Source of the DNA: Spirochaetota bacterium
GTDB lineage: Bacteria; Spirochaetota; UBA4802; UB4802
DNA: 64,000 bases
Assembly (NCBI GenBank): GCA_026414805.1
Contig: JAOAIH010000001.1
Location: 51,335 to 115,334 of the forward strand
Direction: 5' to 3'
The translations under genes and the position numbers were made by a program. Shown one piece after another: positions 12,970 to 61,159 of the stretch. The number at the start of each line of letters is the position of its first letter. The first letter of the stretch is position 1. The notes under the pieces are model-generated. The model ran no database searches. It worked only from the letters and a program-made list of their open reading frames with translations, and had not been told where the DNA came from.

Positions 12970-13229
12970 TGTTCACACCACCATTTCTTTTATTACTATT
13001 TATATTTTAAACTTATTTTAAATAAGTGTTAGTAATAGTGATAGTATTTTTGTTGATAACTGTAAAAAATCCTGAACTTTTCAGCATTTGGAAAAAATTT
13101 ACTTTGTTAATAATAATCAAAACAATCATTGTAAATTATTTAAAACCCATCTCTGCAACGTATAGATGTTAGATATAATAAAAAAAATTTATAACTATAC
13201 ATACTTTTAAACAATTTACTAACACAATA

Positions 13230-27080: not shown

Positions 27081-27431
27081 ATGCATGAATTATCAATTAT
27101 GTCTAATGTTCTTGATATCGTAATACAGCATGCATCACGAAATGGTGCAACGAAGGTAACAAAAATTCATCTTCTGGTAGGGGAACTATCTGATTATATT
27201 CCAGAGTGGATGCAAACATATTTTGATTTTGTCAGTAAAGATACTATTGCAGAAAAAGCAGAACTTGTTGTTGAAACGGTGAAGGCATCGCTTGCATGTG
27301 ATGATTGTGGGAATACATTCAATTTCAATAAAAATGATTGGCAATTCAGTTGCCCACAATGTTCTTCACCAAATGTGACCATTATTTCAGGGAGGGAACT
27401 TACAGTAAAAAGCATAGAAATAGAGGGATAA
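27081..27431 (+). CDS. hypA: hydrogenase nickel-incorporation protein HypA
   Basis: N-terminal MHE Ni-binding motif. Zn finger CDDCGN...CPQCSS. 116 aa, with the typical HypA layout. Confidence 0.8.
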   Translation: MHELSIMSNVLDIVIQHASRNGATKVTKIHLLVGELSDYIPEWMQTYFDFVSKDTIAEKAELVVETVKASLACDDCGNTFNFNKNDWQFSCPQCSSPNVTIISGRELTVKSIEIEG

Positions 27432-27432
27432 T

Positions 27433-35855: not shown

Positions 35856-38800
35856 TTAAAATAACAAGCTAAACTGGAAACCCAGTTCGTATGATATGAT
35901 CTCACGGTTAATACCATTTGTTTCCCTATTTCTGAATCGTTCCAGAATCCCACGCGCTATGCATTGTCCTTGTACATTTTTATGCATGTTTATTGTCAGG
36001 CTGGATGAGATACTGTAGAGATCATAGGGTTCAGGTGAAGTAAAATAGGTATAGTTATACCGGTTTAGCGTCATAAGATATTCTAACCTGAATATAGGCA
36101 GCGCTGTCAATGTGTACCAGATACTGAAAAAATCATATATAAAAGGGACATCCGTTTCATATATAGTTGAAAACGTATACCCTTTATCAATGTTGGTATA
36201 TGGTGGTTGCATAGTCATATTATAGTAATAGATATCATCCTTTGCTGATCGCTTGTCTTCTTCAATTGGTATGAATTCATACCATTGCTGTGAGCGGTAG
36301 CTTATACCAAATTTTGTAGCTATGCTTGACCTATCCCACTTGAATGTTGTTCCAATACTTGGTGTGTGCTCATTTATCAGTATATTAGATGTGATTCGTA
36401 AATATTTATTAAACTGGTATTCAAATAGTGCTGTTGCTGAATGATATGGGAGGTTGGGCCTGTTTGGCCTGAAAAAGCCAAATGAAAATATCTTCATTAA
36501 ATCGCAAGACAATGATGAGACTAGTGTATAGGTTACTACCTGCTGGGATGGTGAGTTAACACCATTGCGGTCTGATACTGAGTGGAGGCTGCTATTTACA
36601 AAAATTATAAATGGAGATAGCTCCCAGCTGATTGCAAATGATACATTGTCTAAAAGCCTGAAGTAGTTATTGTATTCTGAAAATGTGGTCTGGTTAACTA
36701 CTGGTTGAGAAGATAACGTATATGTTACAAAATCACGCCCTCTGGCATAATTTGATCTTCCCTTAAAGAAATACCATGGAGGATATTGTAGTAAATTATA
36801 TATTGAATTGGCAGATGCATTGCAGTAACGACCAGCACCAAATTTTTCTTCATAAAAGTTGATGGATTCACCTTCATAAGGGACGTTAATTTCATTGAGT
36901 GTACTACTCCTGGTATAATTAATTGAACAATTTTTTATGCTGGGAAAGTATGATTGGAGATTGATGGGCAATGAAAGTGTATTGGATAAAAATCCTTGTG
37001 TGGATCGGGTACGTTTGAAACCGTAGTGTAGCCAGTTATCATAAGGCAGTAGGTCTTTAAATTGATTTTCAAAATACGAAAATTCATACGTTATTGTAGG
37101 GTTTATAAATTTATAGCGCTGCAGTCCCAAGGCAAGTGAGTATTTTTTTAACCGCTCAATGAACCGGATTGTGTCATTATAAAGAAAGGGGATATGGAAG
37201 CCAGAGCTTATCTCATTTGATAAAACTGGATTAATATCAGTAACTGTACCTGAGTAGGTAAGGAATTCTTCAGATACATGTTGAATTCTGGGAGAAATAA
37301 AAAAATGGGTGAATTGATAATTGATATTTATTGAACATGATTGGCGCTGTTTTTTTTGTGTATTGTATCCTGATGTTAATGATTGGCTGTATTCTTTAAA
37401 TATGTCTTCCTTAAATGAAGCATCCAGAAATATCCTGTACGATAAATCTCCCCCTACTATATCATGCAATGATTGTTGTAATCCTACTGTTGCTTGATGT
37501 GTTGTTTTACTTGTATCATTATCAAATGTATTAATGTCCTGATAATACGCCTGTCTGTTAGTGAAGTTTTCATAATTGTACAGTACATTAAGCTGTGGAA
37601 TAGCTGTATCTGGTGGTGACAGAGTTGATGAAAAGTGGAATTGTTGTATATTGGTTGTTCCCCGTTTTGTAGGGCTAACCTGTTCATTGAGACTATCAGT
37701 CCTTGATTGCTCCTGTATGTAATCAAATGATGTGTGCCAGTATGGAAGAACACTGCAAGTTAATGTTGCCTGATTGTAGTCTTCGGATATATCATTATAT
37801 GGCTGCCCTATCGTATAAAAATTATTTCCGTGTTTTTTCTTTACATATGATACGGTAATATCGGATAATACAGGTGTACCTGATTCAGTGCGGGTAATAG
37901 GTTTTGTTATTTTTACTGTACCTTCATACCATGATGCAGTGTCTTCAAGTGTCATAGGGTCACTGGTGTAAATATCATTAAGCCAGAATTCACCATTTGT
38001 GGGAGTGGTATTTTCAACTGAAACTGTGATGGCAGTTATCCGTTTGAGATCAGGTTCTCCTTCCTTTTTTTTAAACTGTACGTTTGTATTCTTGCATTGG
38101 AGTGATAATACAATATCTTCCCAGGTATGCAGCAGTTGAGGGGTGTAGGAATATTCCAGGTAATCACTGTCAGATGAATGTATACGAAATGTAAGAATAT
38201 CCCCTGGTGTAAAACTTCGCATGTTAATCCAGCTATGTATGTTGCGATAAAAACGCAAATCCATGGGTTTATGAAATTTTCGCTTGATAGTAGCTGAACT
38301 AATCGCACTATATGTTACTTTGAGAGCAGATTCCATAGTTTGGGTGAGTTCTTTTTTGGATTTATCGCCATAGAGACTTGTATACACGTCGCTTTTTATG
38401 CGCGCAAATGATTCCTGTGCATAGTCTGTATCATTAAATGAATCAATGAGTGTGAGTTTGACTTTATCTGTGTTACTGCCACTTATCCCATCAATGCTAT
38501 CAACCTGCCAGTGCATGGTAACAAAACGTATTGTATCAATAAGGATTGTACCTGAAGTTGCTGTTGCTTTGTGTAATATCAATCGAATTGAATATATTTT
38601 TTTCAATATATCATAAAACGCATCTGGATTTGTAGCATATAATGAGGGGTTGTTTTTATTCACATAGATACGGATGCTTTTCCATGAGGTATCTGCCAAA
38701 TTTACTGAGAGAGGAGATGGTAGCCCAGGGATTCGTATGTACTGTTCTCCAGTATCAAGCATACCGTTGTCATTTAAGTCTTCGGTATTGAGTACTCCAT

Positions 38801-41538: not shown

Positions 41539-42531
41539 TTACCACATCTTGCTCATATAAGGGTAAGGATTAATTGGCACCCCTCCCAAACGTATTTCAT
41601 AATGGCAGTGACTGCCTGTGGCCGAACCGGTTTGGCCAACATAGGCAATAACCTGCCCTTTCTGGATATTCTGCCCTGGATACACTATTATCTTGGAACA
41701 GTGTCCATATATTGTTTCATAGCCATATTTGTGTTTAATCCTGACCATGTAGCCGTAACCGCCACCCCATGATGATGATACCACTACACCAGGAGCTGTC
41801 GCACGAATTTCTGTGCCCTGAGGCGCTGCTATGTCAATGCCAGAGTGGAAATCTCTTCCAAAACCAAATGGCGAACGCCTCCATCCAAAAAGTGAGGTAA
41901 TGTGGCCAGGATTAGGTATTATTGATGGTGTGTCGTATATTACTTTATTACGGACATCAATGAAATTCTTAATTGTTTTAACGGTATTTGTGGTGCAAAT
42001 TAAATCTTTTTGAAGAGCGCGCAGTGTTTTTACTTCAGAGGGCAGAATTGCTGAGTATTGTCGCATTGCAGGATCTTCAACCGGAATCATTGATGATTCC
42101 CATATTGATTGTGTGTTGTTATTATTGGTTGCTAATTCATACAAATCTTCGATGTCGGGTTTTATGTCATCTAATTCTTTTTCCAGTTCATTTGTCAATT
42201 GTTCAAAACGTATGAGTTGTGACCGAATATCTTTGTAATTTGACATTAATCGCTCTTCTTCCCGTTTTACTGCAGCATTTTTTATTATGGCATAGGCAGA
42301 TGTAACAATAACTATAACCATTAATGAACTAAAAAAAAGTATTGTAAAACGAGAAATCTGAAAATTAAATATCTTCTGTTCATTATGCGGAATGAACATT
42401 ATTGTCATTTTTTCATGGCCATGTTCAAGGAATTTGTCCCATTTTTTGGCCCATTGCTTTTTTTTAAGATAATATTTTTCTTTGAGCTGTCGCTCAATTT
42501 CACTCTTTATTATTTTAAGCTTTACCTTCAT
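41539..42531 (-). CDS. M23 (LytM-type) peptidase with N-terminal TM and coiled-coil (EnvC-like)
   Basis: FHSGIDIAAPQGTEIRA...GHCSKI...GSHCHYEIR are the HxxxD / HxH motifs of M23 peptidases. Confidence 0.8.
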   Translation of the reverse strand: MKVKLKIIKSEIERQLKEKYYLKKKQWAKKWDKFLEHGHEKMTIMFIPHNEQKIFNFQISRFTILFFSSLMVIVIVTSAYAIIKNAAVKREEERLMSNYKDIRSQLIRFEQLTNELEKELDDIKPDIEDLYELATNNNNTQSIWESSMIPVEDPAMRQYSAILPSEVKTLRALQKDLICTTNTVKTIKNFIDVRNKVIYDTPSIIPNPGHITSLFGWRRSPFGFGRDFHSGIDIAAPQGTEIRATAPGVVVSSSWGGGYGYMVRIKHKYGYETIYGHCSKIIVYPGQNIQKGQVIAYVGQTGSATGSHCHYEIRLGGVPINPYPYMSKMW

Positions 42532-43055: not shown

Positions 43056-43266
43056 CTATGCTTAAGATTATAGAACATCCAGCTTTTTTGATTAGATATT
43101 TCTATTTCAGGGGGCAATCTGGCAATTGTGTGAACCGTATTGCAGGCTTGAAAAGTATGTTCTATATGCTATGCTCTTTTTTTCATATCTAAATTATTGT
43201 AAAAAACGCTTGTATTAATAGCAAGGGCAATGTATAGTTTTTCAAGGATTAAAAAATGGTGTGTAA

Positions 43267-43809
43267 ATGAAATCTGAAAATAAAGACAAGCTTTTAGCTG
43301 TATTGTTTTATACACTGGTAGCTGCCTATTCTTACCTGGTATTGACAGTGGGTTCTGGAAACGATATTTTATTCTGGTCGTATGAAGAATTAATTTTTGG
43401 GATTGTAATTAGTATCATTTTGGCATCTGTCACCTACTGGCTTATACCAATAAAAATTACCGGAAAATTACTGAATCCGTTTTTTTATGTGGGGATAGTA
43501 TTATATTTCATTGGCCCTTTTTTTGTAGCGCTTTTGATAGCTAATCTGGAAGTACTTTACAGAATTATTACTGGGAAAATTAAACCCGCTATTGTAAAAG
43601 TTGATCCGGAAATTAACGATGAGATGGGTGTGTATCTACTGGCAAATTCAATAACGCTATCGCCTGGAACACTCACAATAGGTGTTGATCCCGAAAAACG
43701 AAAATTATTCATTCACTGTTTGTACTGGGATAAAGCAAAGGAATATTCTGCTGTGCCAAAAGATGTTGCAGGTTTTCTGCACTATTTTTTAAAAAAGCTT
43801 TTTACATGA
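43267..43809 (+). CDS. Mrp/Mnh antiporter subunit E-like (MbhA-like), first gene of the hydrogenase cluster
   Basis: LANSITLSPGTLTIGVDPEKRKLFIHCL matches the MnhE signature LANxITLTPGT. Confidence 0.65.
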   Translation: MKSENKDKLLAVLFYTLVAAYSYLVLTVGSGNDILFWSYEELIFGIVISIILASVTYWLIPIKITGKLLNPFFYVGIVLYFIGPFFVALLIANLEVLYRIITGKIKPAIVKVDPEINDEMGVYLLANSITLSPGTLTIGVDPEKRKLFIHCLYWDKAKEYSAVPKDVAGFLHYFLKKLFT

Positions 43810-43822
43810 AACAGGCGTATAT

Positions 43823-44092
43823 ATGTATGATTATAACTCTATATTTTTGATATCTGCATTTCTCTGTATACTATATGTATGCATTATCGTTATACGGATT
43901 GCATTCAGCCATAACGTCCCTGAACGGATTGTAGCGCTTGATACAATTAATACATTAATTATCGTTATCATGATTGTTTTAGGTGCTGCTCAAAAGAAGG
44001 CCTTGTATATTGATATTGGTATAGTCTATGGGATTATCTCTTTTATTGGTACATTATATATTGCCCGATATCTCATAGATGAGAGGAAATGA
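43823..44092 (+). CDS. Mrp/Mnh subunit F-like small membrane protein (MbhB-like)
   Basis: 89 aa, 3 TM; its position after the MnhE-like gene follows the cluster order. Confidence 0.5.
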   Translation: MYDYNSIFLISAFLCILYVCIIVIRIAFSHNVPERIVALDTINTLIIVIMIVLGAAQKKALYIDIGIVYGIISFIGTLYIARYLIDERK

Positions 44093-44500
44093 ATGGACGC
44101 TTTGATTTTGGTTTGTATGGCAATTGGTTTATTTGTTAATGGTATGAGCATTATTGGGCTAATGCGCTTTCCTGATATATATACCCGCCTGCACGCAGCT
44201 ACAAAAACTACAACATTTGGAAGTATTTTTGTGGTTTTAGCGATAGTTATTAAAAATATATTTTATTATGACCCCACCAGTCTCACAATTATTATTCATA
44301 GTATTGTTGCATTGCTGGTTATTATATTTACTAATCCAATCAGCGCTCATGCAATTGCACGAGCATCATTACTGTCGGGCATTAAGCCTGTGGGCGTTAT
44401 AATTAATGAGTTTGACTATAAATCCCAGATGAAAACCGCTGATGAGCTTGAATTGGAAAAGGTGAGTGAAGGAATCCCGGATGAAGGTGGTATGGTATGA
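44093..44500 (+). CDS. Mrp/Mnh subunit G-like (MbhC-like)
   Basis: RFPDIYTRLHAATKTTTFGSIFVV matches the MnhG signature. Confidence 0.65.
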   Translation: MDALILVCMAIGLFVNGMSIIGLMRFPDIYTRLHAATKTTTFGSIFVVLAIVIKNIFYYDPTSLTIIIHSIVALLVIIFTNPISAHAIARASLLSGIKPVGVIINEFDYKSQMKTADELELEKVSEGIPDEGGMV

Positions 44501-44739
44501 TGTATTATTTTTTTCTGGTTATTTCAATAGCACTAGTAATAACTGCACTGCTTTCAATATATTTTCGTGATCTTCTTGCAGCAATAGTGAGCTATTCGGT
44601 CTTTTCATTAGTACTCACTGTACTGTATTTTCTCCTTGATGCGCCTGATGTAGCTATTGCTGAAGCTGGAATTGGTGCAGCACTGACCACCTGTATTTTT
44701 GTTATCGCAATTAGGATGACACGGAGAAGGGAAGAATGA
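44497..44739 (+). CDS. small membrane subunit (MbhD-like)
   Basis: 80 aa, 2-3 TM; overlapping start and stop within the operon. Confidence 0.45.
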   Translation: MMYYFFLVISIALVITALLSIYFRDLLAAIVSYSVFSLVLTVLYFLLDAPDVAIAEAGIGAALTTCIFVIAIRMTRRREE

Positions 44740-45569
44740 GGCTTTTAAGTGTTGTAGCTATTGTCATTATATTTGGGTTTTTATTTGTTGGGATACTTAA
44801 CCTTCATCCAGTGGGGCAGGCTATTGGGAATCCGGATGTATTAAAGGAAAGGCCAGAGTATGGCATTGATGTCCAGGGCGTTACCACTATGGATGATTAT
44901 TTTTTACGAAACGGACAGGTAGAAACAAAATCAAACAATATTGTGGCAAGTGTAGTATTTGATTATAGAGGATTTGATACATTGGGGGAAGCAACAGTAT
45001 TATTCGTTGTGGTAAGCAGCATTTCAATGCTATTCTTTACATTCCTTAAGAGCAAAAGTATTGTATCAGCGGGTGTACCTCCCGCAGGGCAGTTCCCTAA
45101 AATTGAATCACGGATAATAACATTTGGAGCTTTTATCATGTATATCATGATATTAAGTTTTGGTGTGTATCTAGTGGTACATGGACATCTTTCCCCTGGG
45201 GGTGGTTTCCAGGGTGGCTCGGTTATGGCTTCTGCTACTGCGCTTCTGCTTATAAGTTTTTTAATTACCAGGCATATGCAACGCACTCGTAAAATATTTT
45301 CATTCTTTGAATCATTTGGATTAACAATTTTTATTGGTATCGGTTTTACTGGAATTGGAATATCATTTTTATATAATTTTCTAGCGCACAGTGGCGCTGC
45401 ATTTGGAAGGCTTATCCCATTTGGGCCCAATCAGGGTTATCTTATTTCCGCTGGAATATTGCCATGGCTGTCACTGGCTGTGGGTATTGAAGTATTTTTT
45501 GGATTAAGTCTTATACTTGTGACGTTATTCCATGCATCGGGAGTGAAAAATAATTCTTTGCAACGGTAA
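44736..45569 (+). CDS. Mrp/Mnh subunit B-like membrane protein (MbhE/F-like)
   Basis: IVASVVFDYRGFDTLGEATVLF matches the MnhB motif NIVxAIlxDyRGxDTLGE. Confidence 0.6.
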   Translation: MRLLSVVAIVIIFGFLFVGILNLHPVGQAIGNPDVLKERPEYGIDVQGVTTMDDYFLRNGQVETKSNNIVASVVFDYRGFDTLGEATVLFVVVSSISMLFFTFLKSKSIVSAGVPPAGQFPKIESRIITFGAFIMYIMILSFGVYLVVHGHLSPGGGFQGGSVMASATALLLISFLITRHMQRTRKIFSFFESFGLTIFIGIGFTGIGISFLYNFLAHSGAAFGRLIPFGPNQGYLISAGILPWLSLAVGIEVFFGLSLILVTLFHASGVKNNSLQR

Positions 45570-45573
45570 TGCT

Positions 45574-45933
45574 ATGGCAGCTATTGTACTTTATGTAACA
45601 TTTATTTTACTGCTGATTATAGGGATAATTGCTCTACTGTTTAAACGAAACCTTATAAAGATTGTGCTTGCATTTAACATTCTAGACTCAGGCATAAACC
45701 TTTTTTTTATTACACTTGGCTATCGTGAAAATGCTATGGCGCCCATTTTCACTTTAGCGCCATTTGATTATGTCTTCACCATGGTATTGCCAACGCCTCA
45801 GGCTTTGATATTAACCAATATTGTTATTGGATTTGCCACTACTGCACTGATGTTGGGTGTTGCTGTACTTACCTATAGAAACAACAATACAATGGATACA
45901 CGAAAATTACGTGGAGTTGAAGAGTATGATTAA
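45574..45933 (+). CDS. Mrp/Mnh subunit C / NuoK-like (MbhG-like)
   Basis: 119 aa, 3 TM, NuoK/MnhC-like N-terminus (LLLIIGIIALLFKRNLIKIVLAFNILDSGINLFFITLG). Confidence 0.6.
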   Translation: MAAIVLYVTFILLLIIGIIALLFKRNLIKIVLAFNILDSGINLFFITLGYRENAMAPIFTLAPFDYVFTMVLPTPQALILTNIVIGFATTALMLGVAVLTYRNNNTMDTRKLRGVEEYD

Positions 45934-47458
45934 ACACGTGCCGGTATTACTGGTAACTATACCGCTTCTGGTTGCATTTATGGTGCCAATGATTGGTATG
46001 GTTAATCGTACTGCACGTACAATTATTGGGGCGATAGCTCTTGTTATTATAATGGCAGCATCTTATTATATTGCTGGTGATGTTTTGCTTCATGGAAGGA
46101 TTTTTTATTATATGGTAGGTTCTTCTAATCCGGAAGTTGTTACAGAACATGGTTTAACGTTCCCAATACGTATAGGGTTGAAAATTGACCAATTTTCGCT
46201 CTTTTTTATTATCATGGCAACAACTCTTGTATTTATTTTTTATGTATTCTCAACGCAATATATTGAGGAAAATGATAGGAAAAATTATTTTGTTGTGCTT
46301 TTTATAAGCATGGTAGCGGGTATGATGGGTTTGCTTGTTGCAAATGACCTGTTTACATTCTTTGTATTTTTAGAAATTCTTTCAATTTCATCGGCTGCTC
46401 TGGTGGCTTTCAGAACTGAACGAAGGCATCCGCCGTATGCTGGGTATAAATACATGTTTGTGAGTGCAGTGGCAACTAGTTTCTTTTTGTTAGGAATTGC
46501 TTTTTTATATGCTCAGTATGGATCATTCAATATTGACTATCTCAAAGAAGCTTTACGGGGAACATTCTTAGATAAAATTGCTATTATACTTCTCATTATT
46601 CCACTTGCAATGAAATCAGGCGTTGTTCCTATGCATATGTGGATACCTGATACCTATTCTGAAGCTCCTGCCCCAATAAGTGCAATGGTAAAATTAGCAA
46701 GTTTAATTTGTCTTTATGGTTTATTCAGGATTTCCTTTTCTTTTGGATTAAGCCATGCTCATGTTAGTTATCCTCTTGGAATATTATTTATTGTGTTTGG
46801 AATATTATCAATGTTTGTAGGGGTAACTCAAGCGCTGGTACAAAGGGATGTGAAACGCCTTATGGCTTTTCACGCCGTTTCGCAAGTTGGATATATGCTG
46901 TTAGGTATGGGTGTTGGATTATCAGTGATTAAATCAGGTGATGCTTCTTTTGCTCTTTTTGGAAAAGTAGCTATGATAGGGGGACTGCTTCATGTAGTTA
47001 ATAATGCATTATATAAGGGATTGCTGTTTTTAACATCAGGTATTTTGGTACGACATTTTAAAACACGTAATCTGGATGAAATGCATGGCTTAGCACATTA
47101 TGATATTTTTACTACAGTAGTGTTTATGATTGCTGCCCTTGCAATATCAGGGATTCCACCGTTCAATGGATTTATATCAAAAATTATCATTTATGAATCT
47201 GTTTTCCAGTACAATCCAGTGTTGACATTGATTGCAATATTTGTTTCAATTTTAACGCTGGCTTCATTTATGAAAGTTTTTTACAGTGCTTTTCTTGGTA
47301 TGCCCTGTGACAGAATCCCAAAAGAACAGCCTATTTTGATTAAATGCAGTATGCTTTTGATTTCAATATTTATTATAGTAATTGGTATATTCCCCCAAGG
47401 TATATTAAAGATATTGATTGAACCAGCTATTAATGCCTTAATCAATTTTCAGGGGTAA
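45926..47458 (+). CDS. MrpD/NuoL/NuoN-like proton-pumping antiporter subunit (MbhH-like)
   Basis: ~510 aa polytopic protein of the complex-I antiporter-like family. The probable start MIKHV overlaps the preceding stop. Confidence 0.8.
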   Translation: MIKHVPVLLVTIPLLVAFMVPMIGMVNRTARTIIGAIALVIIMAASYYIAGDVLLHGRIFYYMVGSSNPEVVTEHGLTFPIRIGLKIDQFSLFFIIMATTLVFIFYVFSTQYIEENDRKNYFVVLFISMVAGMMGLLVANDLFTFFVFLEILSISSAALVAFRTERRHPPYAGYKYMFVSAVATSFFLLGIAFLYAQYGSFNIDYLKEALRGTFLDKIAIILLIIPLAMKSGVVPMHMWIPDTYSEAPAPISAMVKLASLICLYGLFRISFSFGLSHAHVSYPLGILFIVFGILSMFVGVTQALVQRDVKRLMAFHAVSQVGYMLLGMGVGLSVIKSGDASFALFGKVAMIGGLLHVVNNALYKGLLFLTSGILVRHFKTRNLDEMHGLAHYDIFTTVVFMIAALAISGIPPFNGFISKIIIYESVFQYNPVLTLIAIFVSILTLASFMKVFYSAFLGMPCDRIPKEQPILIKCSMLLISIFIIVIGIFPQGILKILIEPAINALINFQG

Positions 47459-47462
47459 GGTA

Positions 47463-47798
47463 ATGAATATATTTCAAGTAGAATATCTTCACTGGACACC
47501 ACTGTTATGGTTGGGGATTTTTTTTGTGTTGTTTATTGTAATGATTATTGTTGGAAAACTTTTTTTCAGAAATGATTATAATACAGTTGATCAGCAAAGC
47601 TTGCCTTTTTACTCGGGGACAAGTAATAAAATGCTCCAAATGATTACCGCAAGCAATTTATACTGGGGTTTTAAGCATGCTCTGGATGTGTATTTTACTG
47701 CTATCAAGAAATTATTCATAAGTGATGTTGAAGATTTTATTCAATGGTTTATTATAATAATAGCGTGTATGCTTCTTTTAGTAACAGGAGTATTATAG
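47463..47798 (+). CDS. small membrane subunit (MbhI-like)
   Basis: 111 aa, 2 TM, inside the operon. Confidence 0.4.
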   Translation: MNIFQVEYLHWTPLLWLGIFFVLFIVMIIVGKLFFRNDYNTVDQQSLPFYSGTSNKMLQMITASNLYWGFKHALDVYFTAIKKLFISDVEDFIQWFIIIIACMLLLVTGVL

Positions 47799-48226
47799 TG
47801 AAGATAAATTACCGCCATTTGAAACGTTCCTTATGGGCTTATCATTTGAATACAGGGTCATGCAATGCATGTGATATTGAGATTTTGGCAACACTTATGC
47901 CTCGGTATGATATTGAACGCTTTGGTATAAAACTGGTTGGTACCCCACGTCATGCTGATGTTTTACTTGTTACTGGAACTGTAACCGAAAAGATTAAAGA
48001 AAGCGTCATTCAAGTATATCAGCAGGTACCAGAACCCAAGTTGGTGATTGTCATTGGAGGGTGTGGTTCAACTAAAGGTGTGTTTCAGGAGTCCTATGCA
48101 ATGGCTGGACCGGTTGATGAAATAATTCCTGTTGATGTGTACATACCCGGGTGTCCACCAAGACCTGAAGCTATAATTTATGGAATAGCAAAAGCCTGGG
48201 AAAAATTGGAAAAATTCCAAAAATGA
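47798..48226 (+). CDS. [NiFe] hydrogenase small subunit, NuoB/HycG-like (MbhJ-like)
   Basis: Four-Cys [4Fe-4S] ligands GSCNACDIE, GGCGSTKG and IPGCPP. GTG start at 47798 overlaps the upstream TAG, with an AGGAG ribosome-binding site 8 nt before it. Confidence 0.85.
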   Translation: MKINYRHLKRSLWAYHLNTGSCNACDIEILATLMPRYDIERFGIKLVGTPRHADVLLVTGTVTEKIKESVIQVYQQVPEPKLVIVIGGCGSTKGVFQESYAMAGPVDEIIPVDVYIPGCPPRPEAIIYGIAKAWEKLEKFQK

Positions 48227-48244
48227 AGTTACTATATATATGCC

Positions 48245-48739
48245 ATGGGTACTGAATCTATTATAACAGCTTTACAGGAAAAATTAGGAAGTCATATTGT
48301 GGCATCTAGGGAAAAGATTAAAGAATATGCAAGTGGTGTTTCCCGCATTACACTATGGATAAGTATTGATAGAGAGTCATTTCATCACGCTGTGGGGATT
48401 TTAAAAACCCTTGGAAGGTTACATATATCTACACCAATGCCCTACAAGGAGTATGAAGACCGCATAGAACTTATATATCCTTTTGCTTTGAAGATGAAAG
48501 ATGCCAGGTTCTCTGAGGTAATGGTCATTCTATCAGTAGATGTCCCCAAAGAAGATTTAATGGTACGCACAATTACCGATATTGTCCCTGGGGCTCTATT
48601 TATGGAACGAGAGGCTATGGAAATGATAGGAGTTGCAATTGAAGATATACCTGACCCACGTAGGCTTTTTACAGGTAATTATTTGCCAGATGGTTTTTAT
48701 CCACTAAGGGAATCAGGTAAGAAGGAAATATTACCATGA
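48245..48739 (+). CDS. NuoC/HycE-N-terminal-like subunit (MbhK-like)
   Basis: ALFMEREAMEMIGVAIEDIPDPRRLFTGNYLPDGFYPLRE matches the 30-kDa subunit signature (ERExxDMFGIxFxxHPDLRRIL). Confidence 0.65.
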   Translation: MGTESIITALQEKLGSHIVASREKIKEYASGVSRITLWISIDRESFHHAVGILKTLGRLHISTPMPYKEYEDRIELIYPFALKMKDARFSEVMVILSVDVPKEDLMVRTITDIVPGALFMEREAMEMIGVAIEDIPDPRRLFTGNYLPDGFYPLRESGKKEILP

Positions 48740-49974
48740 AATCAGATATATACTATCCGTTAAATATTGGTCCTGTACATCCTGCATTTAAGGAACCTAT
48801 TAAATTTACTTTCAGAATAGAAGGTGAAAAGGTTATTGGAGCTGATATAGAATTTGGGTACACGCACAGAGCCATAGAAAGAGTTGCTCAGGAAAGAAAT
48901 TACATCCAGATTATCTATCTTTTAGAAAGAGTCTGTGGTATTTGTTCTTTCTCACATCCAATGGCATATTGCCTGGCTATTGAGGATGTAGCTGGTATTG
49001 AGGTTCCACCACGTGCAAGGTATATCCGGACTATCATTGGGGAGCTTGAACGCCTTCACTCTCACTTATTGTGGACGGGGGTTGCAGCTCATGAAATAGG
49101 ATTTGATACGCTGTTTATGTATACATGGAATATACGAGAAAAAGTCCTGGATTGTTTAGAGGAACTTACAGGGAACAGAATTAATTATGCAATGCTTACT
49201 ATAGGAGGTGTACGCCGTGATATAACTGCAGAAAATGCAGTAACTATCAATCAGATTCTAGAATACTATGAGGAATTATATAATAGAACTTCCGAAATAT
49301 TACTTGATGATTTAACGCTGAGAGCAAGAACTGAAAACATTGGAATTCTGACTCTGGAGCAGGCAGAGCGTTTATGTGCAGTAGGTCCAACAGCTCGGGG
49401 TTCGGGACTTTTGAAAGATGTTCGATTTGATTATCCTGTGAATGCATATTATGAAATACCTTGGTTAAAACCTGTATCACCTAAAGATATTGGGAAAGAA
49501 CCTATTGGTGATGTGTATGACAGGATGGCTGTTCGCGTATTAGAGATAAAACAATCAATCCAAATCATCCAATTTTGTATGGAAAACCTTCCTCAAGGGA
49601 ATATTAATACCGGTGAAAATGCTGTAAAGATGATAAACACTCTAAAGAAGCTTGAAGGGGAAGGAATAGGCCGGTATGAAGCACCACGTGGGGAAGTGTG
49701 CCATTATGTTATACTGGATAATCAAGAACATCCTGTTCAGATTAAAGTAAAAGCTCCAACATACTCTAATGGTTTTACCTGGGCACCAATGCTTACTAAT
49801 ATTGAGATAGCTGATATTCCAATAGTTATTGCTTCAATAGACCCATGTGTTGCATGTGCTGATAGGATGACATATATTCAATCGAATGGCAAATTGATCA
49901 CAATGTCGTGGGAAGAATTGCACAAAAAGAGTATACAGAAGTTCAAAGAGGCACGCAGAAAATGTTTGAGGTAA
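48736..49974 (+). CDS. group-4 [NiFe] hydrogenase large (catalytic) subunit (MbhL/HycE-like)
   Basis: N-terminal L1 motif ERVCGICSFSH (RxCGxCxxxH) and C-terminal L2 motif DPCVACADR (DPCxxCxxR) are both intact, which marks a true hydrogenase rather than a complex-I/Mbx-type paralogue. Confidence 0.85.
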   Translation: MKSDIYYPLNIGPVHPAFKEPIKFTFRIEGEKVIGADIEFGYTHRAIERVAQERNYIQIIYLLERVCGICSFSHPMAYCLAIEDVAGIEVPPRARYIRTIIGELERLHSHLLWTGVAAHEIGFDTLFMYTWNIREKVLDCLEELTGNRINYAMLTIGGVRRDITAENAVTINQILEYYEELYNRTSEILLDDLTLRARTENIGILTLEQAERLCAVGPTARGSGLLKDVRFDYPVNAYYEIPWLKPVSPKDIGKEPIGDVYDRMAVRVLEIKQSIQIIQFCMENLPQGNINTGENAVKMINTLKKLEGEGIGRYEAPRGEVCHYVILDNQEHPVQIKVKAPTYSNGFTWAPMLTNIEIADIPIVIASIDPCVACADRMTYIQSNGKLITMSWEELHKKSIQKFKEARRKCLR

Positions 49975-50975
49975 TGTATATAGCGATAGCTATCACTATC
50001 GCAGGTGTGATTGTGGGGCTTTTTCTTAAAGGTATAGATAGGAAACTTGCAGCGTATTTGCAGTCAAGGATTGGTCCACCTATCGCACAACCCCTGTACG
50101 ATGTAATGAAATTAATGCATAAACAGACAATTGTACCATCGACATCTGTACGATGGTTATTTAATGGAGCACCATTTGTTGCGCTTGTTTCATGTATAGT
50201 ATTATTCTTATATATTACCCTACCCTATATGTTTTATATTATGGGAATGCACAGTCCCCTTCACGGTGACCTTATTGTTGTCATCTACCTTGTTCTTATT
50301 CCATCCATTGCAGTTATCAGCGGTGCATTTGCATCAGGATCTCCATATGCTTCAATTGGTGCGCAGCGTGAAATGGTTCTTTTGATGAGTACAGAGTTGC
50401 CAATTGCAGTTGTAGTGGTGAGCATTGCATGGCATGTAGCTGATAGCTTGTATAATCCGTTTGCATTACAATCTTTTCTTGAATATACAGTATGGCATAA
50501 AGCGGGGGCATTTGGAATTCTGGGCAGTATTTTACTGTTGCTTGCAATGATGCTTGTTTTACCTGCTGAAATGTCTAAAGTACCATTTGATCAGGCCGAA
50601 GCTGAAACTGAGATAGCTGAGGGAGTGCTTGTAGAGTATTCTGGTAAGCTGCTGGCATTTTTGCTTTTAACAGATGCATTTAAAGCATTATCTTTATCAA
50701 TTCTGATAATTATATTGTTTTTCCCCTATACAATTTCAAGTTTGTTTGGAATATCGTTTACAATTGGTAATTATACTATCACCCCATTAGTTGAAATACT
50801 TTTTCTTGTATTCAAAATTATCATTGTCTATAGCTTTGGGGTTACTATTATTAGAGTAATTATGGCTCGATTAAAGATTTCGCAAGTTGCAAAAGTATTT
50901 CTTTTTGCAATTTCAGCAATAAGTATTATCGGAATGGTCTTGATTATGTTAGACCCTAAGATGAAAATGATGTGA
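49962..50975 (+). CDS. NuoH/HycD-like membrane subunit (MbhM-like)
   Basis: Polytopic membrane protein directly after the large subunit; the alternative ATG 49974 overlaps the stop (TAATG). Confidence 0.75.
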   Translation: MFEVMYIAIAITIAGVIVGLFLKGIDRKLAAYLQSRIGPPIAQPLYDVMKLMHKQTIVPSTSVRWLFNGAPFVALVSCIVLFLYITLPYMFYIMGMHSPLHGDLIVVIYLVLIPSIAVISGAFASGSPYASIGAQREMVLLMSTELPIAVVVVSIAWHVADSLYNPFALQSFLEYTVWHKAGAFGILGSILLLLAMMLVLPAEMSKVPFDQAEAETEIAEGVLVEYSGKLLAFLLLTDAFKALSLSILIIILFFPYTISSLFGISFTIGNYTITPLVEILFLVFKIIIVYSFGVTIIRVIMARLKISQVAKVFLFAISAISIIGMVLIMLDPKMKMM

Positions 50976-50985
50976 CAGGTGTACT

Positions 50986-51453
50986 ATGTTGGGAATGATA
51001 TATAAAGTAGTTGAGCAGCTATTTTCAAAAAAGTCTACAAATTTTTTCCCTTCAAAATATATACTGGAAAATACAGAGTATGCTCTGAAAAGCGGTTTAC
51101 TACATCCGACTGTTGAAGTCAAAGATGGCTTCAGGGGCAGGTTGAAATATGATTTTGAAAGCTGTACAGGCTGTGGATTATGTAACAAAGTATGCCCTGC
51201 TAATGCTATTGAATTATATCCTGCTCAAGTAAATGCCAAAAAAACAAAAAGGATCGTGATTTATTTATCACGGTGTACATATTGTCAGGAGTGTGTTAAT
51301 ATATGCCCTAAAAATTCAATTCAGATTACCAAAGATTTTTTTATGGCTGGTTATAAAAAATATGGAAATTCAATGGTTGTTGGTTTTGAGCACAGAGAAA
51401 ATTATGAGATAAAACAAGAGGAAAGCTCAGATGTTCAAAAAGAAGGAAATTGA
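50986..51453 (+). CDS. NuoI/HycF-like 2x[4Fe-4S] ferredoxin subunit (MbhN-like)
   Basis: Two ferredoxin motifs, CTGCGLCNKVCP and CTYCQECVNICP. Confidence 0.8.
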   Translation: MLGMIYKVVEQLFSKKSTNFFPSKYILENTEYALKSGLLHPTVEVKDGFRGRLKYDFESCTGCGLCNKVCPANAIELYPAQVNAKKTKRIVIYLSRCTYCQECVNICPKNSIQITKDFFMAGYKKYGNSMVVGFEHRENYEIKQEESSDVQKEGN

Positions 51454-51694
51454 GATAAAAGTAAAACTATATAGCGGGCTTCACAAGGAAGCTAAAATTG
51501 ATCATTATAACCCCGATTTAGGATATGTGCTTAAAATTCCAAAGGGTGCTCGGGTGAGGCATGTTGCAAAACTGTTAGGATTACCTGATATTTATTCACT
51601 GGCATATTTTTGCAATGGGCAGCGCATAGGTGTTTTCAAAAAGTTGCATGAAGGTGATGAGCTTTCCTGTTTTAGGCCTTCGGGCGGTGGCTGA
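51431..51694 (+). CDS. ThiS/MoaD-like ubiquitin-fold sulfur-carrier candidate ending in Gly-Gly(-Gly)
   Basis: 87 aa, beta-grasp-like pattern; the C-terminus ...CFRPSGGG-stop is the hallmark of sulfur-carrier proteins. Confidence 0.5.
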   Translation: MFKKKEIEIKVKLYSGLHKEAKIDHYNPDLGYVLKIPKGARVRHVAKLLGLPDIYSLAYFCNGQRIGVFKKLHEGDELSCFRPSGGG

Positions 51695-51696: not shown

Positions 51697-52419
51697 TTAT
51701 AGTAAATATTCGTCCTCTCTATGGCTCAATGATCTGAAAATACTAGATTGAGCACCTTTAACTGATTTGTTAATTATTTTTAAAAGTTCTTTTGTATGAT
51801 TTCGTTTTGTAAGATCCTTGTAAGGACATTCATTTTCAACAGGTGATAACATACATGCACTGCAATATCCTTTTACTTCAGCCTCTGTGAGAAATGCTAG
51901 AGGACGTATAATCTCCAATGTGCCATTAAACATTTTTAATTTAGGCGGCATGGTAGATAGTTTGCCATGATATAACATATTCATAAAAAAAGTAATTATA
52001 ATATCATCCTGATTGTGACCAAATGCTATTTTTTTACATCCCAGCTCGGCTGCGGTCTCAAATAAAATTTTTCTTCTAAACCATGAACAAACAAAGCAAG
52101 GAGAGGAATTTTTTCTTGAAAGATCTAGCGTTATTTCTTTAATATAAAGAGGTATATCGTAGTTGCAACAGTACTGTTTGAGTCTGTCAATGCTTTTACT
52201 ATTGTGAAAGTTTTTTACTATTACATGGCAGCAAAACAAATTATAATGTATTGGTATATGCTTTAAACGTCGGTGTAATGCATCCATCAAAACAAGTGAA
52301 TCTTTCCCTCCTGAAAGAGCTATAAGAATATTATCATTTGCTTCTATCATGTTATAGGTATTAATAGCTTTTCCTACAATCTTCAGTAATTTCCCAATCT
52401 GTTTATCCTTATGGTTCAT
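51697..52419 (-). CDS. ttcA: TtcA/TtuA-family PP-loop tRNA thiolase (short, 240 aa)
   Basis: PP-loop SGGKDS. CFVCSWFRRKILFETAAELGCKKIAFGHNQDDII...MPPKL closely parallels the E. coli TtcA block CNLCSRLRRG...GHHRDD...MPPKL. Confidence 0.8.
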   Translation of the reverse strand: MNHKDKQIGKLLKIVGKAINTYNMIEANDNILIALSGGKDSLVLMDALHRRLKHIPIHYNLFCCHVIVKNFHNSKSIDRLKQYCCNYDIPLYIKEITLDLSRKNSSPCFVCSWFRRKILFETAAELGCKKIAFGHNQDDIIITFFMNMLYHGKLSTMPPKLKMFNGTLEIIRPLAFLTEAEVKGYCSACMLSPVENECPYKDLTKRNHTKELLKIINKSVKGAQSSIFRSLSHREDEYLL

Positions 52420-61048: not shown

Positions 61049-61058
61049 AAATAAAAAT

Positions 61059-61130
61059 CTGAGGTGCCAGGATTCGAACCTGGGAATGCCGGGACCAAAA
61101 CCCGGTGCCGTACCGCTTGGCTACACCTCA
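61059..61130 (-). tRNA. tRNA-Gln (anticodon UUG)
   Basis: Reverse complement TGAGGTGTAGCCAAGCGGTACGGCACCGGGTTTTGGTCCCGGCATTCCCAGGTTCGAATCCTGGCACCTCAG folds as a cloverleaf: 7-bp acceptor stem, U8, GTTCGAATC T-loop, anticodon loop TTTTGGT. It is near-identical in layout to E. coli tRNA-Gln. CCA is not encoded. Confidence 0.8.
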
Positions 61131-61159
61131 ATTATTAAATAATATAGTAAAAATTTATA

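What the first reader, a model, noticed from the sequence alone, without database searches (positions are those of the whole stretch)
43267..51453. Complete 13-gene Mrp-antiporter-linked group-4 [NiFe] hydrogenase (Mbh-like) cluster in a bacterium
Gene order MnhE-F-G-like, small subunits, MnhB-like, MnhC-like, MrpD/NuoL-like, small membrane protein, then NuoB-like small subunit, NuoC-like, large subunit, NuoH-like, NuoI-like. This mirrors the archaeal mbhA-N respiratory H2-evolving, ion-translocating hydrogenase. The large subunit keeps both Ni-Fe ligand motifs (RVCGICSFSH; DPCVACADR) and the small subunit keeps its 4 Cys, so this is an active hydrogenase rather than an Mbx or complex-I relic. 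Only hypA of the maturation genes is in the window (27081), 16 kb away.
Basis: partly seen in the sequence, partly recalled or inferred. Interest (0 to 1): 0.6.

Follow-up and report, generated by a model that had tools for sequence, protein, structure and literature searches.

The report
Mbh-type membrane hydrogenase operon, Spirochaetota
This is an intact 13-gene operon for a membrane-bound, ion-pumping [NiFe] hydrogenase of the Pyrococcus "Mbh" type in an uncultured spirochaete; the enzyme type is already well known and already annotated in many bacterial genomes, so the finding is correct but ordinary.

Summary
Thirteen tightly packed + strand genes (43267-51453) encode homologues of all 14 Pyrococcus furiosus MBH subunits; MbhE and MbhF are fused. 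Nearly every subunit's best solved-structure match is the corresponding MBH chain (6CFW). The large subunit is 47% identical to MbhL. It keeps all four Ni-Fe cysteines, the proton-donor Glu and a cleavable C-terminal tail. MbhJ keeps 4 Cys and MbhN keeps 8 Cys. MBS/Mbx, complex I and formate hydrogenlyase readings are rejected. All genes are under strong purifying selection (dN/dS 0.007-0.16). The operon is syntenic in six Spirochaetota genomes. The same cluster occurs in Atribacteria, Acetothermia, Thermoplasmata and other lineages. Bacterial Mrp-linked group 4 hydrogenases are already in the literature and in public annotation. This is therefore a new member of a known kind, of low interest.

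The probable function is ferredoxin-driven H2 evolution coupled to H+/Na+ translocation; this is inferred, not shown. Only hypA is in the window. The hycI gene that flanks the cluster in four more distant relatives is missing here.

One point of detail differs. The antiporter-like subunit MbhH lacks the canonical TM8 lysine (Pf K256) and has a Lys about one helical turn earlier. MbhH H350 and MbhG H41 are Asn. These are traits of the subfamily or lineage, not of this locus alone.

The parts
43191..43224 (+). Conserved AT-rich block with partial dyad symmetry (..AAAAAACGCTTGTATTAATAGCAAG..), 45-75 nt upstream of mbhA. Candidate promoter or operator; inference only.
   Evidence: This is the only conserved stretch of the ykgJ-mbhA spacer in the alignment with L001-L004. 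The generic promoter scan was no better than shuffles.
43267..43809 (+). mbhA (MnhE/MrpE-like membrane subunit, 180 aa)
   Evidence: Pfam MNHE 8.6e-26. Best PDB hit 6cfw_A, 3.8e-24.
43823..44092 (+). mbhB (MrpF-like, 89 aa). Keeps the Na+-site residues D35, N38, T39, D59 and S68 (P. furiosus numbering).
   Evidence: Pfam MrpF_PhaF. 6cfw_B 3.7e-18, with an ungapped alignment. Residue list from PMC8679088.
44093..44500 (+). mbhC (MnhG/MrpG-like, 135 aa). Keeps T42, H75 and T86-N87-P88.
   Evidence: Pfam PhaG_MnhG_YufB. 6cfw_C 5.3e-22.
44497..44739 (+). mbhD (DUF4040/MbhD, 80 aa). 98-100% identical in close relatives.
   Evidence: Pfam MbhD 1.9e-17. 6cfw_D and 6u8y_D hits. Identity to relatives.
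44736..45569 (+). Fused mbhE-mbhF (MbhE domain + MnhB domain, 277 aa)
   Evidence: Pfam MbhE + MnhB. 6cfw_E matches residues 2-97 and 6cfw_F residues 135-262. The naturally fused MBS subunit 6u8y_E spans both. The same fusion occurs in L007 and L008. The two genes are separate in L010, L011 and L012.
45574..45933 (+). mbhG (MnhC/NuoK-like, 119 aa). K23, K28 and D37 are kept; H41 is Asn.
   Evidence: Pfam Oxidored_q2. 6cfw_G 5e-23. Residue comparison.
45926..47458 (+). mbhH, the single antiporter-like (MrpD/NuoL-type) subunit, 510 aa from ATG 45926. The ORF is open from GTG 45857. E143, K225, H346, K354 and K409 are kept. K256 is Ser, with a Lys about one helical turn upstream (3 residues, 4-5). 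H350 is Asn.
   Evidence: Pfam Proton_antipo_M 1.6e-52. 6cfw_H 5e-90, against Mrp and MBS hits at about 1e-41 to 1e-44. Residue mapping.
47463..47798 (+). mbhI (111 aa membrane linker subunit, Nqo7/ND3-like role)
   Evidence: NCBIfam NF053600 MbhI, 1.7e-15, 57 bits, below the cutoff of 95. No Pfam hit. Position conserved in all relatives.
47798..48226 (+). mbhJ, the hydrogenase small subunit (NuoB-like), 142 aa from GTG 47798. The ORF is open from ATG 47744. Four Cys ligate the proximal [4Fe-4S].
   Evidence: Pfam Oxidored_q6 4.9e-31. 6cfw_J 2e-52 with all four Cys aligned. AGGAG lies 8 nt before the GTG. Relatives are 143-149 aa.
48245..48739 (+). mbhK (NuoC-like, 164 aa)
   Evidence: Pfam Complex1_30kDa 9.7e-17. 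6cfw_K 8.6e-13.
48736..49974 (+). mbhL, the [NiFe] large subunit (412 aa). E20, C67, C70, H74, C371 and C374 correspond to Pf E21, C68, C71, H75, C374 and C377. A 35-aa C-terminal extension follows R377.
   Evidence: Pfam NiFeSe_Hases + Complex1_49kDa. 6cfw_L 1e-113. 46.8% identity and residue mapping.
49962..50975 (+). mbhM (NuoH-like membrane anchor, 337 aa from ATG 49962). The ORF is open from GTG 49908. E141 is kept.
   Evidence: Pfam NADHdh 2.3e-54. 6cfw_M 8.8e-48, against 6u8y_M 1e-23.
50986..51453 (+). mbhN (NuoI-like 2x[4Fe-4S] ferredoxin-type subunit, 155 aa). Two CxxCxxCxxxCP motifs.
   Evidence: Pfam Fer4 families. 6cfw_N 5.6e-18. Cys positions 60/63/66/70 and 97/100/103/107.
51431..51694 (+). 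87-aa ORF of unknown function that overlaps the mbhN 3' end by 23 nt and has its own Shine-Dalgarno sequence. It may be a lineage-specific 14th gene of the operon. Membership of the complex is not shown.
   Evidence: dN/dS 0.064 against L002. Present in L001-L004 and absent in L005/L006. No family hit. No fold match.
27081..27431 (+). hypA, the nickel metallochaperone. It is the only maturation gene in the window, 16 kb upstream.
   Evidence: Pfam HypA 9.3e-36. TIGR00100 108.7 bits, above its cutoff of 88.1.

Best explanation
The locus is one operon encoding an Mbh-type, Mrp-linked respiratory [NiFe] hydrogenase (group 4; nearest characterised enzyme is P. furiosus MBH, HydDB group 4d).

Proposed mechanism, by homology:
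1. Reduced ferredoxin docks on MbhN.
2. Electrons pass along three [4Fe-4S] clusters (two in MbhN, one in MbhJ) to the Ni-Fe site in MbhL.
3. There, protons delivered through Glu20 (Pf E21) are reduced to H2.
4. The small free energy is transmitted through MbhM and MbhI to the membrane arm. MbhH moves H+, and the Mrp-like MbhA-G module exchanges H+ for Na+.
5. The resulting ion gradient is usable by an ATP synthase.

MbhL is made as a precursor. Its 35-residue C-terminal tail must be removed by a HycI-type protease after Ni-Fe insertion by HypA-F. Apart from hypA, those genes must lie elsewhere in the genome.

Shown here: gene content, order, conserved ligands and ion-site residues, purifying selection, and wide phylogenetic conservation. 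Inferred: ferredoxin as donor, H2 evolution as the physiological direction, and Na+ coupling.
For: - Domain content and order are identical to mbhA-N.
- Best solved-structure hit of nearly every subunit is the cognate 6CFW chain. Margins over MBS, FHL, Mrp and complex I are large. Examples: L 1e-113 vs 3.5e-43 for MBS; H 5e-90 vs 7e-41; M 9e-48 vs 1e-23; J 2e-52 vs 2e-27.
- Pf E21, C68, C71, H75, C374 and C377 are all conserved. MbhJ has 4 Cys and MbhN 8 Cys.
- The Na+-site residues proposed for Mbh (PMC8679088) are kept in MbhB, MbhC and MbhG D37. MbhD also keeps a Glu in the conserved APDVA..E motif, probably Pf E69; this was read only from the alignment to the MBS D chain. The MbhH ion pair E143/K225 plus H346, K354 and K409, and MbhM E141, are kept.
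- There is a single antiporter-like subunit, as in MBH.
- Gene junctions of -13 to +18 nt indicate one transcription unit.
- dN/dS is 0.007-0.16 for all 13 genes at dS of about 1.
- The operon is syntenic in six Spirochaetota species genomes. The same cluster in other phyla has hycI and hyp genes alongside it.
- A Thermoplasmata enzyme of the same subfamily was reported to evolve H2 and to complement a Na+-sensitive E. coli strain (PMC9585477).
- No formate dehydrogenase or CO dehydrogenase gene was found in the window.
Against: - There is no biochemical evidence for this enzyme or for any bacterial member of its clade.
- Only hypA of the maturation set is in the 64-kb window, and hycI is missing from the position it holds in four more distant relatives. 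Maturation capacity is therefore assumed.
- Three residues that the P. furiosus model treats as functional differ: MbhH K256 (Ser here, with a Lys about one helical turn earlier), MbhH H350 (Asn) and MbhG H41 (Asn). The ion pathway or stoichiometry may therefore differ from the archaeal paradigm.
- The direction of catalysis in vivo and the identity of the coupling ion cannot be read from sequence.
- The HydDB subgroup (4d or 4g) was not determined.
Confidence: 0.85

Rival explanations
1. Same complex, opposite physiological direction. It would use the Na+/H+ gradient to drive H2 oxidation and produce reduced ferredoxin for biosynthesis or CO2 fixation, as Eha/Ehb and some Ech enzymes do.
For: Group 4 enzymes are reversible in principle; HydDB describes 4e as physiologically reversible. 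Nothing in the sequence fixes the direction. Some relatives sit beside NuoE/NuoF-like and Fe-S/molybdopterin oxidoreductase genes (L007 and L010).
Against: The closest characterised enzyme evolves H2. Studied Spirochaetota of anoxic habitats are fermentative H2 producers (PMC6052044; PMC10867827). No autotrophy genes are in the window.
Confidence: 0.08
2. It is the hydrogenase/Mrp core of a formate- or CO-oxidising respiratory complex (HydDB group 4b type), with the dehydrogenase module encoded elsewhere.
For: Group 4b enzymes are also Mrp-linked (PMC5037454). The subgroup was not formally assigned here.
Against: No formate dehydrogenase, CO dehydrogenase or formate transporter was found among the window's ORFs of 100 aa or more, nor in the flanks of L001-L006, which are syntenic with the window. 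The Mrp-like genes precede the hydrogenase genes, as in mbh. From my own knowledge, in the Thermococcus onnurineus fdh-mfh-mnh clusters they follow. MbhL is 47% identical to P. furiosus MbhL over its full length.
Confidence: 0.04
3. It is a non-hydrogenase relative (an MBS/Mbx-type sulfane-sulfur reductase or a complex-I-like relic), or a decaying operon.
For: The same protein families build MBS and complex I. MbhD scores slightly better against the MBS D chain than against the MBH D chain.
Against: All four Ni-Fe cysteines and E21 are present, whereas MBS keeps only a vestige of the four-Cys site and complex I has lost all four (PMC8165549). The MBS large subunit scores only 3.5e-43 against 1e-113 for MBH. 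There is one antiporter-like subunit, not the extra ones of MBS. There are no frameshifts or internal stops. dN/dS is at most 0.16.
Confidence: 0.02

Closest known systems
Pyrococcus furiosus membrane-bound hydrogenase MBH (mbhA-N; cryo-EM structure PDB 6CFW; HydDB [NiFe] group 4d)
   Same: - Same subunit set and gene order.
- Cognate best hits for nearly all subunits.
- Ni-Fe ligands, E21, the Fe-S cysteines, most proposed Na+-site residues, and the MbhH E143/K225 pair with K354 and K409 are conserved.
- One antiporter-like subunit.
- The large subunit has a C-terminal extension.
   Different: - Bacterial host, probably mesophilic.
- 13 genes because mbhE and mbhF are fused.
- 47% identity in MbhL.
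- MbhH K256 is Ser, with a Lys about one helical turn upstream. MbhH H350 is Asn. MbhG H41 is Asn.
- No hyc/hyp genes adjacent.
- An extra 87-aa ORF follows mbhN.
Uncharacterised Mrp-linked group 4 hydrogenases of bacterial and archaeal MAGs: Atribacteria, Acetothermia/Bipolaricaulota, Synergistota (called 4d), Cloacimonadota/Omnitrophota (called 4g 'Mbh'), Thermoprofundales
   Same: - Same operon architecture (L007, L008, L010-L013).
- 52-70% identity in MbhL.
- Same loss of the canonical TM8 Lys in MbhH, and Asn at MbhG position 41.
- The fused MbhE/F is shared with L007 and L008.
   Different: - The window lineage has Lys about one helical turn upstream of the K256 column. This is seen otherwise only in its nearest 50%-cluster representative, P0121.
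- It keeps K354, which Acetothermia and Thermoplasmata lost.
- It keeps Asp rather than Glu at MbhG position 37.
- It lacks the adjacent hycI.
P. furiosus MBS (Mbx) sulfane-sulfur reductase, PDB 6U8Y
   Same: Homologous Mrp-like and NuoBCDHI-like modules. The fused MbsE corresponds to the fused MbhE/F here.
   Different: MBS lacks a complete four-Cys Ni-Fe site and has additional antiporter-like subunits. All scores are much weaker than to MBH.
E. coli formate hydrogenlyase (Hyc, group 4a; PDB 7Z0S) and Mrp antiporters (PDB 6Z16, 7QRU, 7D3U)
   Same: HycE, HycG, HycF and HycD are homologues of MbhL, J, N and M, with the same maturation logic (HycI cleavage after the C-terminal Arg). MrpA-G are homologues of MbhA-H.
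   Different: - FHL has no Mrp-type Na+ module. Its large subunit is a NuoC-NuoD fusion. It needs formate dehydrogenase H.
- Mrp has no redox module.

Membership tests
MBH-type Mrp-linked respiratory [NiFe] hydrogenase (group 4d-like) | Large subunit with both CxxC Ni-Fe ligand pairs (L1 RxCGICxxxH, L2 DPCxxCxxR/H) | tested here: met
   C67, C70, C371 and C374 align to Pf C68, C71, C374 and C377.
MBH-type Mrp-linked respiratory [NiFe] hydrogenase (group 4d-like) | Proton-donor glutamate on the beta1-beta2 loop (Pf E21), with H75 next to the active site | tested here: met
   E20 and H74 align to them. Role of the residues from PMC8679088.
MBH-type Mrp-linked respiratory [NiFe] hydrogenase (group 4d-like) | Three-cluster electron wire: 4-Cys [4Fe-4S] in MbhJ and two CxxCxxCxxxCP motifs in MbhN | tested here: met
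   MbhJ C22, C25, C89 and C119 (numbered from GTG 47798) align to 6cfw_J. MbhN has 8 Cys in two motifs.
MBH-type Mrp-linked respiratory [NiFe] hydrogenase (group 4d-like) | Mrp-like MbhA-G module plus exactly one antiporter-like subunit (MbhH), encoded upstream of the hydrogenase module in one operon, with MbhI and MbhM as linkers | tested here: met
   MbhI is recognised only by NF053600, at 57 bits, below its cutoff of 95.
MBH-type Mrp-linked respiratory [NiFe] hydrogenase (group 4d-like) | Proposed Na+-binding residues of the P. furiosus model (MbhB D35/N38/T39/D59/S68; MbhC T42/H75/T86/N87/P88; MbhG D37/H41; MbhD E69) | tested here: inconclusive
   All MbhB and MbhC residues and MbhG D37 are conserved. 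MbhG H41 is Asn, as in every non-Thermococcales relative examined. MbhD E69 is probably kept (APDVA..E motif), but the 6cfw_D alignment was not displayed.
MBH-type Mrp-linked respiratory [NiFe] hydrogenase (group 4d-like) | Canonical proton-path residues of the antiporter-like subunit (MbhH E143, K225, K256, H346, H350, K354, K409) | tested here: inconclusive
   Five of the seven are kept. K256 is Ser, with a Lys 3 residues upstream in the 10-sequence alignment and 4-5 residues upstream in the 112-sequence alignment. H350 is Asn. These residues define the mechanism model rather than family membership.
MBH-type Mrp-linked respiratory [NiFe] hydrogenase (group 4d-like) | HydDB or phylogenetic placement of the large subunit in subgroup 4d rather than 4b or 4g | not testable with these tools
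   No HydDB reference set is available here. The nearest characterised protein is Pf MbhL (46.8% identity). Similar bacterial clusters have been labelled 4d (PMC10867827) and 4g (PMC8542988).
MBH-type Mrp-linked respiratory [NiFe] hydrogenase (group 4d-like) | Maturation system: HypA-F and a HycI-type endopeptidase acting on a C-terminal extension | tested here: inconclusive
   A 35-aa extension after R377 is present and hypA is present. hypB-F and hycI are not in the 64-kb window. hycI is adjacent in L007, L008, L010 and L013.
MBH-type Mrp-linked respiratory [NiFe] hydrogenase (group 4d-like) | Ferredoxin-dependent H2 evolution coupled to Na+/H+ translocation | not testable with these tools
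   This needs biochemistry.
MBS/Mbx sulfane-sulfur reductase | Incomplete Ni-Fe cysteine set in the NuoD-like subunit, and extra antiporter-like subunits | tested here: not met
   All four Cys are present. There is a single MbhH. 6u8y_L scores only 3.5e-43.
Formate hydrogenlyase / formate- or CO-respiring group 4a/4b/4c | Adjacent formate dehydrogenase or CO dehydrogenase module. For 4a, also a NuoC-NuoD fused large subunit. | tested here: not met
   No such genes are in the window or in the syntenic flanks. MbhK and MbhL are separate genes. HycE scores 6e-70 against 1e-113 for MbhL.
Respiratory complex I / NDH-1 | NuoD without Ni-Fe cysteines, three antiporter-like subunits, and NuoA/J/K | tested here: not met
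   The cysteines are present. There is one antiporter-like subunit. Mrp E/F/G-type subunits are present.

The most novel reading that the evidence does not exclude
The window's enzyme belongs to a large, biochemically almost untouched subfamily of Mrp-linked hydrogenases that spans bacteria and non-Thermococcales archaea. In this subfamily the antiporter-like subunit has lost the canonical TM8 lysine, and often K354 and H350 as well. MbhG position 41 is Asn. The spirochaete lineage may have re-created a Lys about one helical turn earlier.

If these changes re-route or abolish proton pumping in MbhH, the subfamily would couple H2 evolution to ion transport by a different path or stoichiometry from the P. 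furiosus paradigm. One possibility is Na+ translocation through MbhA-G alone. The spirochaete variant would then be a natural 'revertant' useful for testing the role of that lysine.
Probability: 0.15. Interest if true: 0.45.

Novelty: new member of a known kind. Interest (0 to 1): 0.2.

Why it matters
It adds little that is new. It is a well-preserved example of a known energy-conserving hydrogenase in an uncultured Leptospira-like or Spirochaetota lineage. Cultured anaerobic spirochaetes are described as relying on [FeFe] hydrogenases (PMC6052044).

For the organism, it predicts that reduced ferredoxin from fermentation can be disposed of as H2 while building a Na+/H+ gradient. That would give extra ATP and a role as an H2 source for syntrophic partners.

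For enzymology, the only point of possible wider use is the natural variation at residues that the P. furiosus mechanistic model treats as essential: MbhH K256 and H350, and MbhG H41. This variation is shared across a large uncharacterised subfamily and could guide mutagenesis. It does not open a long-standing question.

Tried and rejected
1. Other maturation genes. ORFs 32543-34699 (718 aa) and 34696-35838 (380 aa) have sizes like HypF and HypD. They are a SpoIIE-type phosphatase and a DHH phosphoesterase. The gene after hypA is MogA/MoaB-like, not hypB.

2. The 87-aa ORF ending in GGG, next to a TtcA-like PP-loop enzyme. I asked whether it is a ThiS/MoaD/ubiquitin-like sulfur carrier. It has no Pfam or NCBIfam hit even at E=10. 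A single-sequence AlphaFold model (pLDDT 76, all-beta) has no significant PDB fold match. The idea is not supported and the function stays unknown.

3. Promoter and terminator scans of 42.4-52.6 kb gave counts no higher than shuffled sequence, so they were not used.

4. Rfam found no riboswitch or other RNA near the operon; its only hit in the window is a tRNA-Gln at 61058-61131.

5. An exact-sequence look-up of the window's MbhL to find the source contig found nothing on record.

6. The Yu et al. 2018 Cell paper (PMC6003862) is not held in the library. Residue roles were taken from PMC8679088, PMC8165549 and PMC9585477 instead.

7. I considered that the long ORF overlaps (mbhG/H 77 nt, mbhI/J 55 nt, mbhL/M 67 nt) might signal frameshifts or programmed events. 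They disappear when internal starts with proper ribosome-binding sites, and with relatives' lengths, are used.

Full report
**Observation**

The region 43267-51453 holds thirteen + strand ORFs. Junctions between them run from -13 to +18 nt once the best-supported start codons are used, so this is the layout of a single operon.

Pfam and NCBIfam assign the ORFs, in order:
- MnhE
- MrpF
- MnhG
- MbhD (DUF4040)
- a fusion of MbhE and MnhB domains (277 aa)
- MnhC/NuoK-like
- one MrpD/NuoL-type antiporter-like protein
- MbhI (NF053600, E=1.7e-15, below the curated cutoff; no Pfam hit)
- NuoB-like
- NuoC-like
- a protein with both NiFeSe_Hases and Complex1_49kDa domains
- NuoH-like
- a 2x[4Fe-4S] NuoI-like protein

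This is the P. furiosus mbhA-N order. There are thirteen genes rather than fourteen because mbhE and mbhF are fused. The same fusion occurs in two bacterial relatives (L007, L008) and in the MBS subunit MbsE.

Three gene starts need correcting:
- mbhH: ATG 45926.
- mbhJ: GTG 47798, preceded by AGGAG. This gives 142 aa, like the 143-149 aa of relatives.
- mbhM: ATG 49962.
The longest-ORF starts are less likely for these three.

**Identity of the complex**

Against all PDB sequences, the cognate chain of the P. furiosus MBH structure 6CFW is the best hit for A, B, C, E, F, G, H, J, K, L, M and N. Margins are large. For the large subunit the values are 1e-113 for MbhL, 6e-70 for E. coli HycE, about 1e-53 for complex I NuoD/Nqo4, and 3.5e-43 for the MBS subunit. 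For MbhH they are 5e-90 against about 1e-41 to 1e-44 for Mrp and MBS. For MbhM they are 9e-48 against 1e-23. For MbhJ they are 2e-52 against 2e-27. Only MbhD scores marginally better against the MBS D chain.

MbhL is 46.8% identical to P. furiosus MbhL over 370 residues. It keeps the proton-donor Glu (Pf E21), the four Ni-Fe cysteines (Pf C68, C71, C374, C377) and H75. The roles of these residues come from PMC9585477 and PMC8679088. MbhJ has the four cysteines of the proximal cluster, and MbhN has two full CxxCxxCxxxCP motifs.

MbhL carries a 35-residue extension after the C-terminal Arg. The P. furiosus chain in the structure ends at that Arg. In four more distant relatives a HycI endopeptidase gene sits directly after mbhN. 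The tail is therefore best read as the usual cleavable maturation extension.

Neither is met.

**Is it functional and maintained?**

There are no internal stops or frameshifts. Against the 90%-identical homologue in L002, dS is about 0.7-1.4 and dN/dS is 0.007-0.16 for every one of the 13 genes.

The operon and its flanks are syntenic in six species-representative Spirochaetota genomes. The flanks are an M23 peptidase and a YkgJ-type CxxCxxCC protein upstream, and a TtcA-like PP-loop enzyme and a response regulator downstream.

**Host and context**

The window also carries dnaA-dnaN-recF-gyrB-gyrA, with a GC-skew sign change near 14 kb. It is therefore bacterial chromosome, and the operon lies about 30 kb from the probable origin on the leading strand.

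The nearest relatives are MAGs labelled Spirochaetota, 'uncultured Leptospira' or Spirochaetia UBA2205.

hypA is at 27081-27431 (TIGR00100, above its cutoff). It is followed by a MogA/MoaB-like gene, not hypB. No other hyp gene, hycI, formate dehydrogenase or CO dehydrogenase was found among the window's ORFs of 100 aa or more.

**Mechanism**

By homology with MBH:
1. Reduced ferredoxin delivers electrons to MbhN.
2. Electrons travel through three [4Fe-4S] clusters to the Ni-Fe site.
3. Protons are reduced to H2.
4. The energy is transmitted through MbhM and MbhI to MbhH (H+ path) and to the Mrp-like MbhA-G module (Na+/H+ exchange).

I checked the residues that the P. furiosus simulations single out (PMC8679088).

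Conserved:
- MbhB D35, N38, T39, D59, S68
- MbhC T42, H75, T86, N87, P88
- MbhG K23, K28, D37
- MbhM E141
- MbhH E143, K225, H346, K354, K409

In addition, MbhD keeps a Glu in the conserved APDVA..E motif. This is probably Pf E69, but I read it only from the alignment to the MBS D chain.

Different:
- MbhG H41 is Asn.
- MbhH H350 is Asn.
- The canonical TM8 lysine, MbhH K256, is Ser. There is a two-residue deletion, and a Lys lies about one helical turn upstream (KLAS). The offset is 3 residues in one alignment and 4-5 residues in the other.

These differences are not peculiar to this locus. Atribacteria, Acetothermia, Thermoplasmata and other Spirochaetota homologues all have Asn at MbhG position 41 and S/T-Q in place of K256. 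Among the full-length hits of a search of 1.84 billion representatives, roughly the 15 closest lack the canonical Lys. More distant antiporter-like proteins nearly all have SGxxxK. Only the window and its nearest representative (P0121, 53% identity) have the displaced Lys.

A Thermoprofundales enzyme of this subfamily has been reported to evolve H2. Its membrane arm was reported to rescue a Na+-sensitive E. coli strain (PMC9585477). The subfamily is therefore functional despite these substitutions. The ion path or stoichiometry may nevertheless differ from the archaeal paradigm; this is inference.

**Comparison with what is known, and novelty**

HydDB defines group 4d as ferredoxin-coupled, Mrp-linked, Na+-translocating hydrogenases (PMC5037454). 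Bacterial members are already reported: 12 of 15 Synergistota genomes in one study (PMC10867827). Very similar Mrp-linked 'Mbh' clusters in Cloacimonadota and Omnitrophota have been labelled 4g (PMC8542988). Public annotation already calls close homologues 'membrane-bound hydrogenase subunit alpha'.

I could not run HydDB, so the 4d or 4g label is open. Either way this is a known kind of system. Within Spirochaetota it is somewhat uncharacteristic, because the studied fermentative members are described with [FeFe] hydrogenases (PMC6052044). That is a distributional note, not a new mechanism.

**Rivals**

- Reverse operation (H2 uptake to make reduced ferredoxin) cannot be excluded from sequence, but it lacks supporting context.
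- A formate- or CO-linked 4b complex is unlikely, given the gene order, the absence of a dehydrogenase module and the similarity to MbhL.
- An MBS/Mbx or complex-I-like relic, or a decaying operon, is refuted by the conserved ligands, the score margins and purifying selection.

**Verdict**

The finding is an ordinary, well-preserved new member of a known enzyme family. I score interest at about 0.2.

The most novel reading still open has a probability of about 0.15. It is that the subfamily-wide remodelling of MbhH and MbhG reflects a different ion-coupling mechanism, with the spirochaete lineage carrying a displaced, possibly compensating lysine.

Noticed in passing
window 51431-51694 (+): 87-aa ORF that overlaps the mbhN 3' end by 23 nt, has its own Shine-Dalgarno sequence and ends ...RPSGGG. 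It is a real gene by dN/dS (0.064 against L002). It is present in L001-L004 and absent in L005/L006. It has no Pfam or NCBIfam hit. A single-sequence AlphaFold model (pLDDT 76, all-beta) has no significant PDB fold match. It occupies the slot where more distant relatives carry hycI.
   Followed up: partly
window 51697-52419 (-): TtcA-like PP-loop tRNA 2-thiocytidine synthetase (NF007972, 172 bits, below its cutoff of 272). It is convergent with the mbh operon and conserved in that position in L001-L006.
   Followed up: partly
window 5769-14600 (-), skew change near 14000: Replication-origin neighbourhood. dnaA (13230-14600), dnaN (11848-12969), recF (10733-11830), gyrB (8262-10157) and gyrA (5769-8213) all lie on the - strand. 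GC skew changes sign at about 14 kb. mnmG and rsmG lie at 21.5-24.6 kb. The mbh operon therefore lies about 30 kb from the probable oriC, co-oriented with replication.
   Followed up: partly
window 27081-27921 (+): hypA is followed one base later by a MogA/MoaB-like molybdopterin adenylyltransferase gene (27433-27921) instead of the usual hypB. No hypB-F is in the window.
   Followed up: partly
window 45926-47458 (MbhH residues corresponding to Pf 244-266); P0121-P0139; L007, L008, L010-L013: The canonical TM8 lysine of antiporter-like subunits (Pf MbhH K256) is absent from roughly the 15 closest 50%-cluster representatives of MbhH, replaced by S/T-Q and similar. Several of these have also lost K354 and H350. 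Only the window lineage and P0121 carry a Lys 4-5 residues earlier in that alignment. MbhG H41 is Asn in all non-Thermococcales relatives examined.
   Followed up: partly
L007 12808-13296, L008 12922-13383, L010 10681-11130, L013 10757-11209; L010 1906-2262; L012 1-2637: In more distant relatives the cluster is flanked by maturation genes. hycI lies convergent right after mbhN. hypA lies upstream in Atribacteria. hypB-like, hypA and hypF lie upstream in Acetothermia. The window lineage has lost this linkage.
   Followed up: yes
L007 7142-9064: In this relative (56% identity in MbhL) mbhH and mbhI are fused into one 640-aa protein, giving a 12-gene version of the operon.
   Followed up: no
window 43056-43266: The spacer between the ykgJ-like gene and mbhA carries an insertion of about 130 nt relative to L001-L004. 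It also holds one conserved AT-rich block with partial dyad symmetry (about 43191-43224) that could be a promoter or operator.
   Followed up: partly
window 35856-41495 (-): Very large (1879 aa) protein with an N-terminal hydrophobic, signal-like segment. It lies next to an M23 peptidase gene (41539-42531, -), upstream of the operon. It was not analysed.
   Followed up: no
window 25215-26987 (-) and 31051-31734 (-): Two DNA methyltransferase genes: an N6_Mtase/Eco57I/TaqI_C type (590 aa) and an N6_N4_Mtase type (227 aa). They bracket the hypA region and may be restriction-modification remnants.
   Followed up: no
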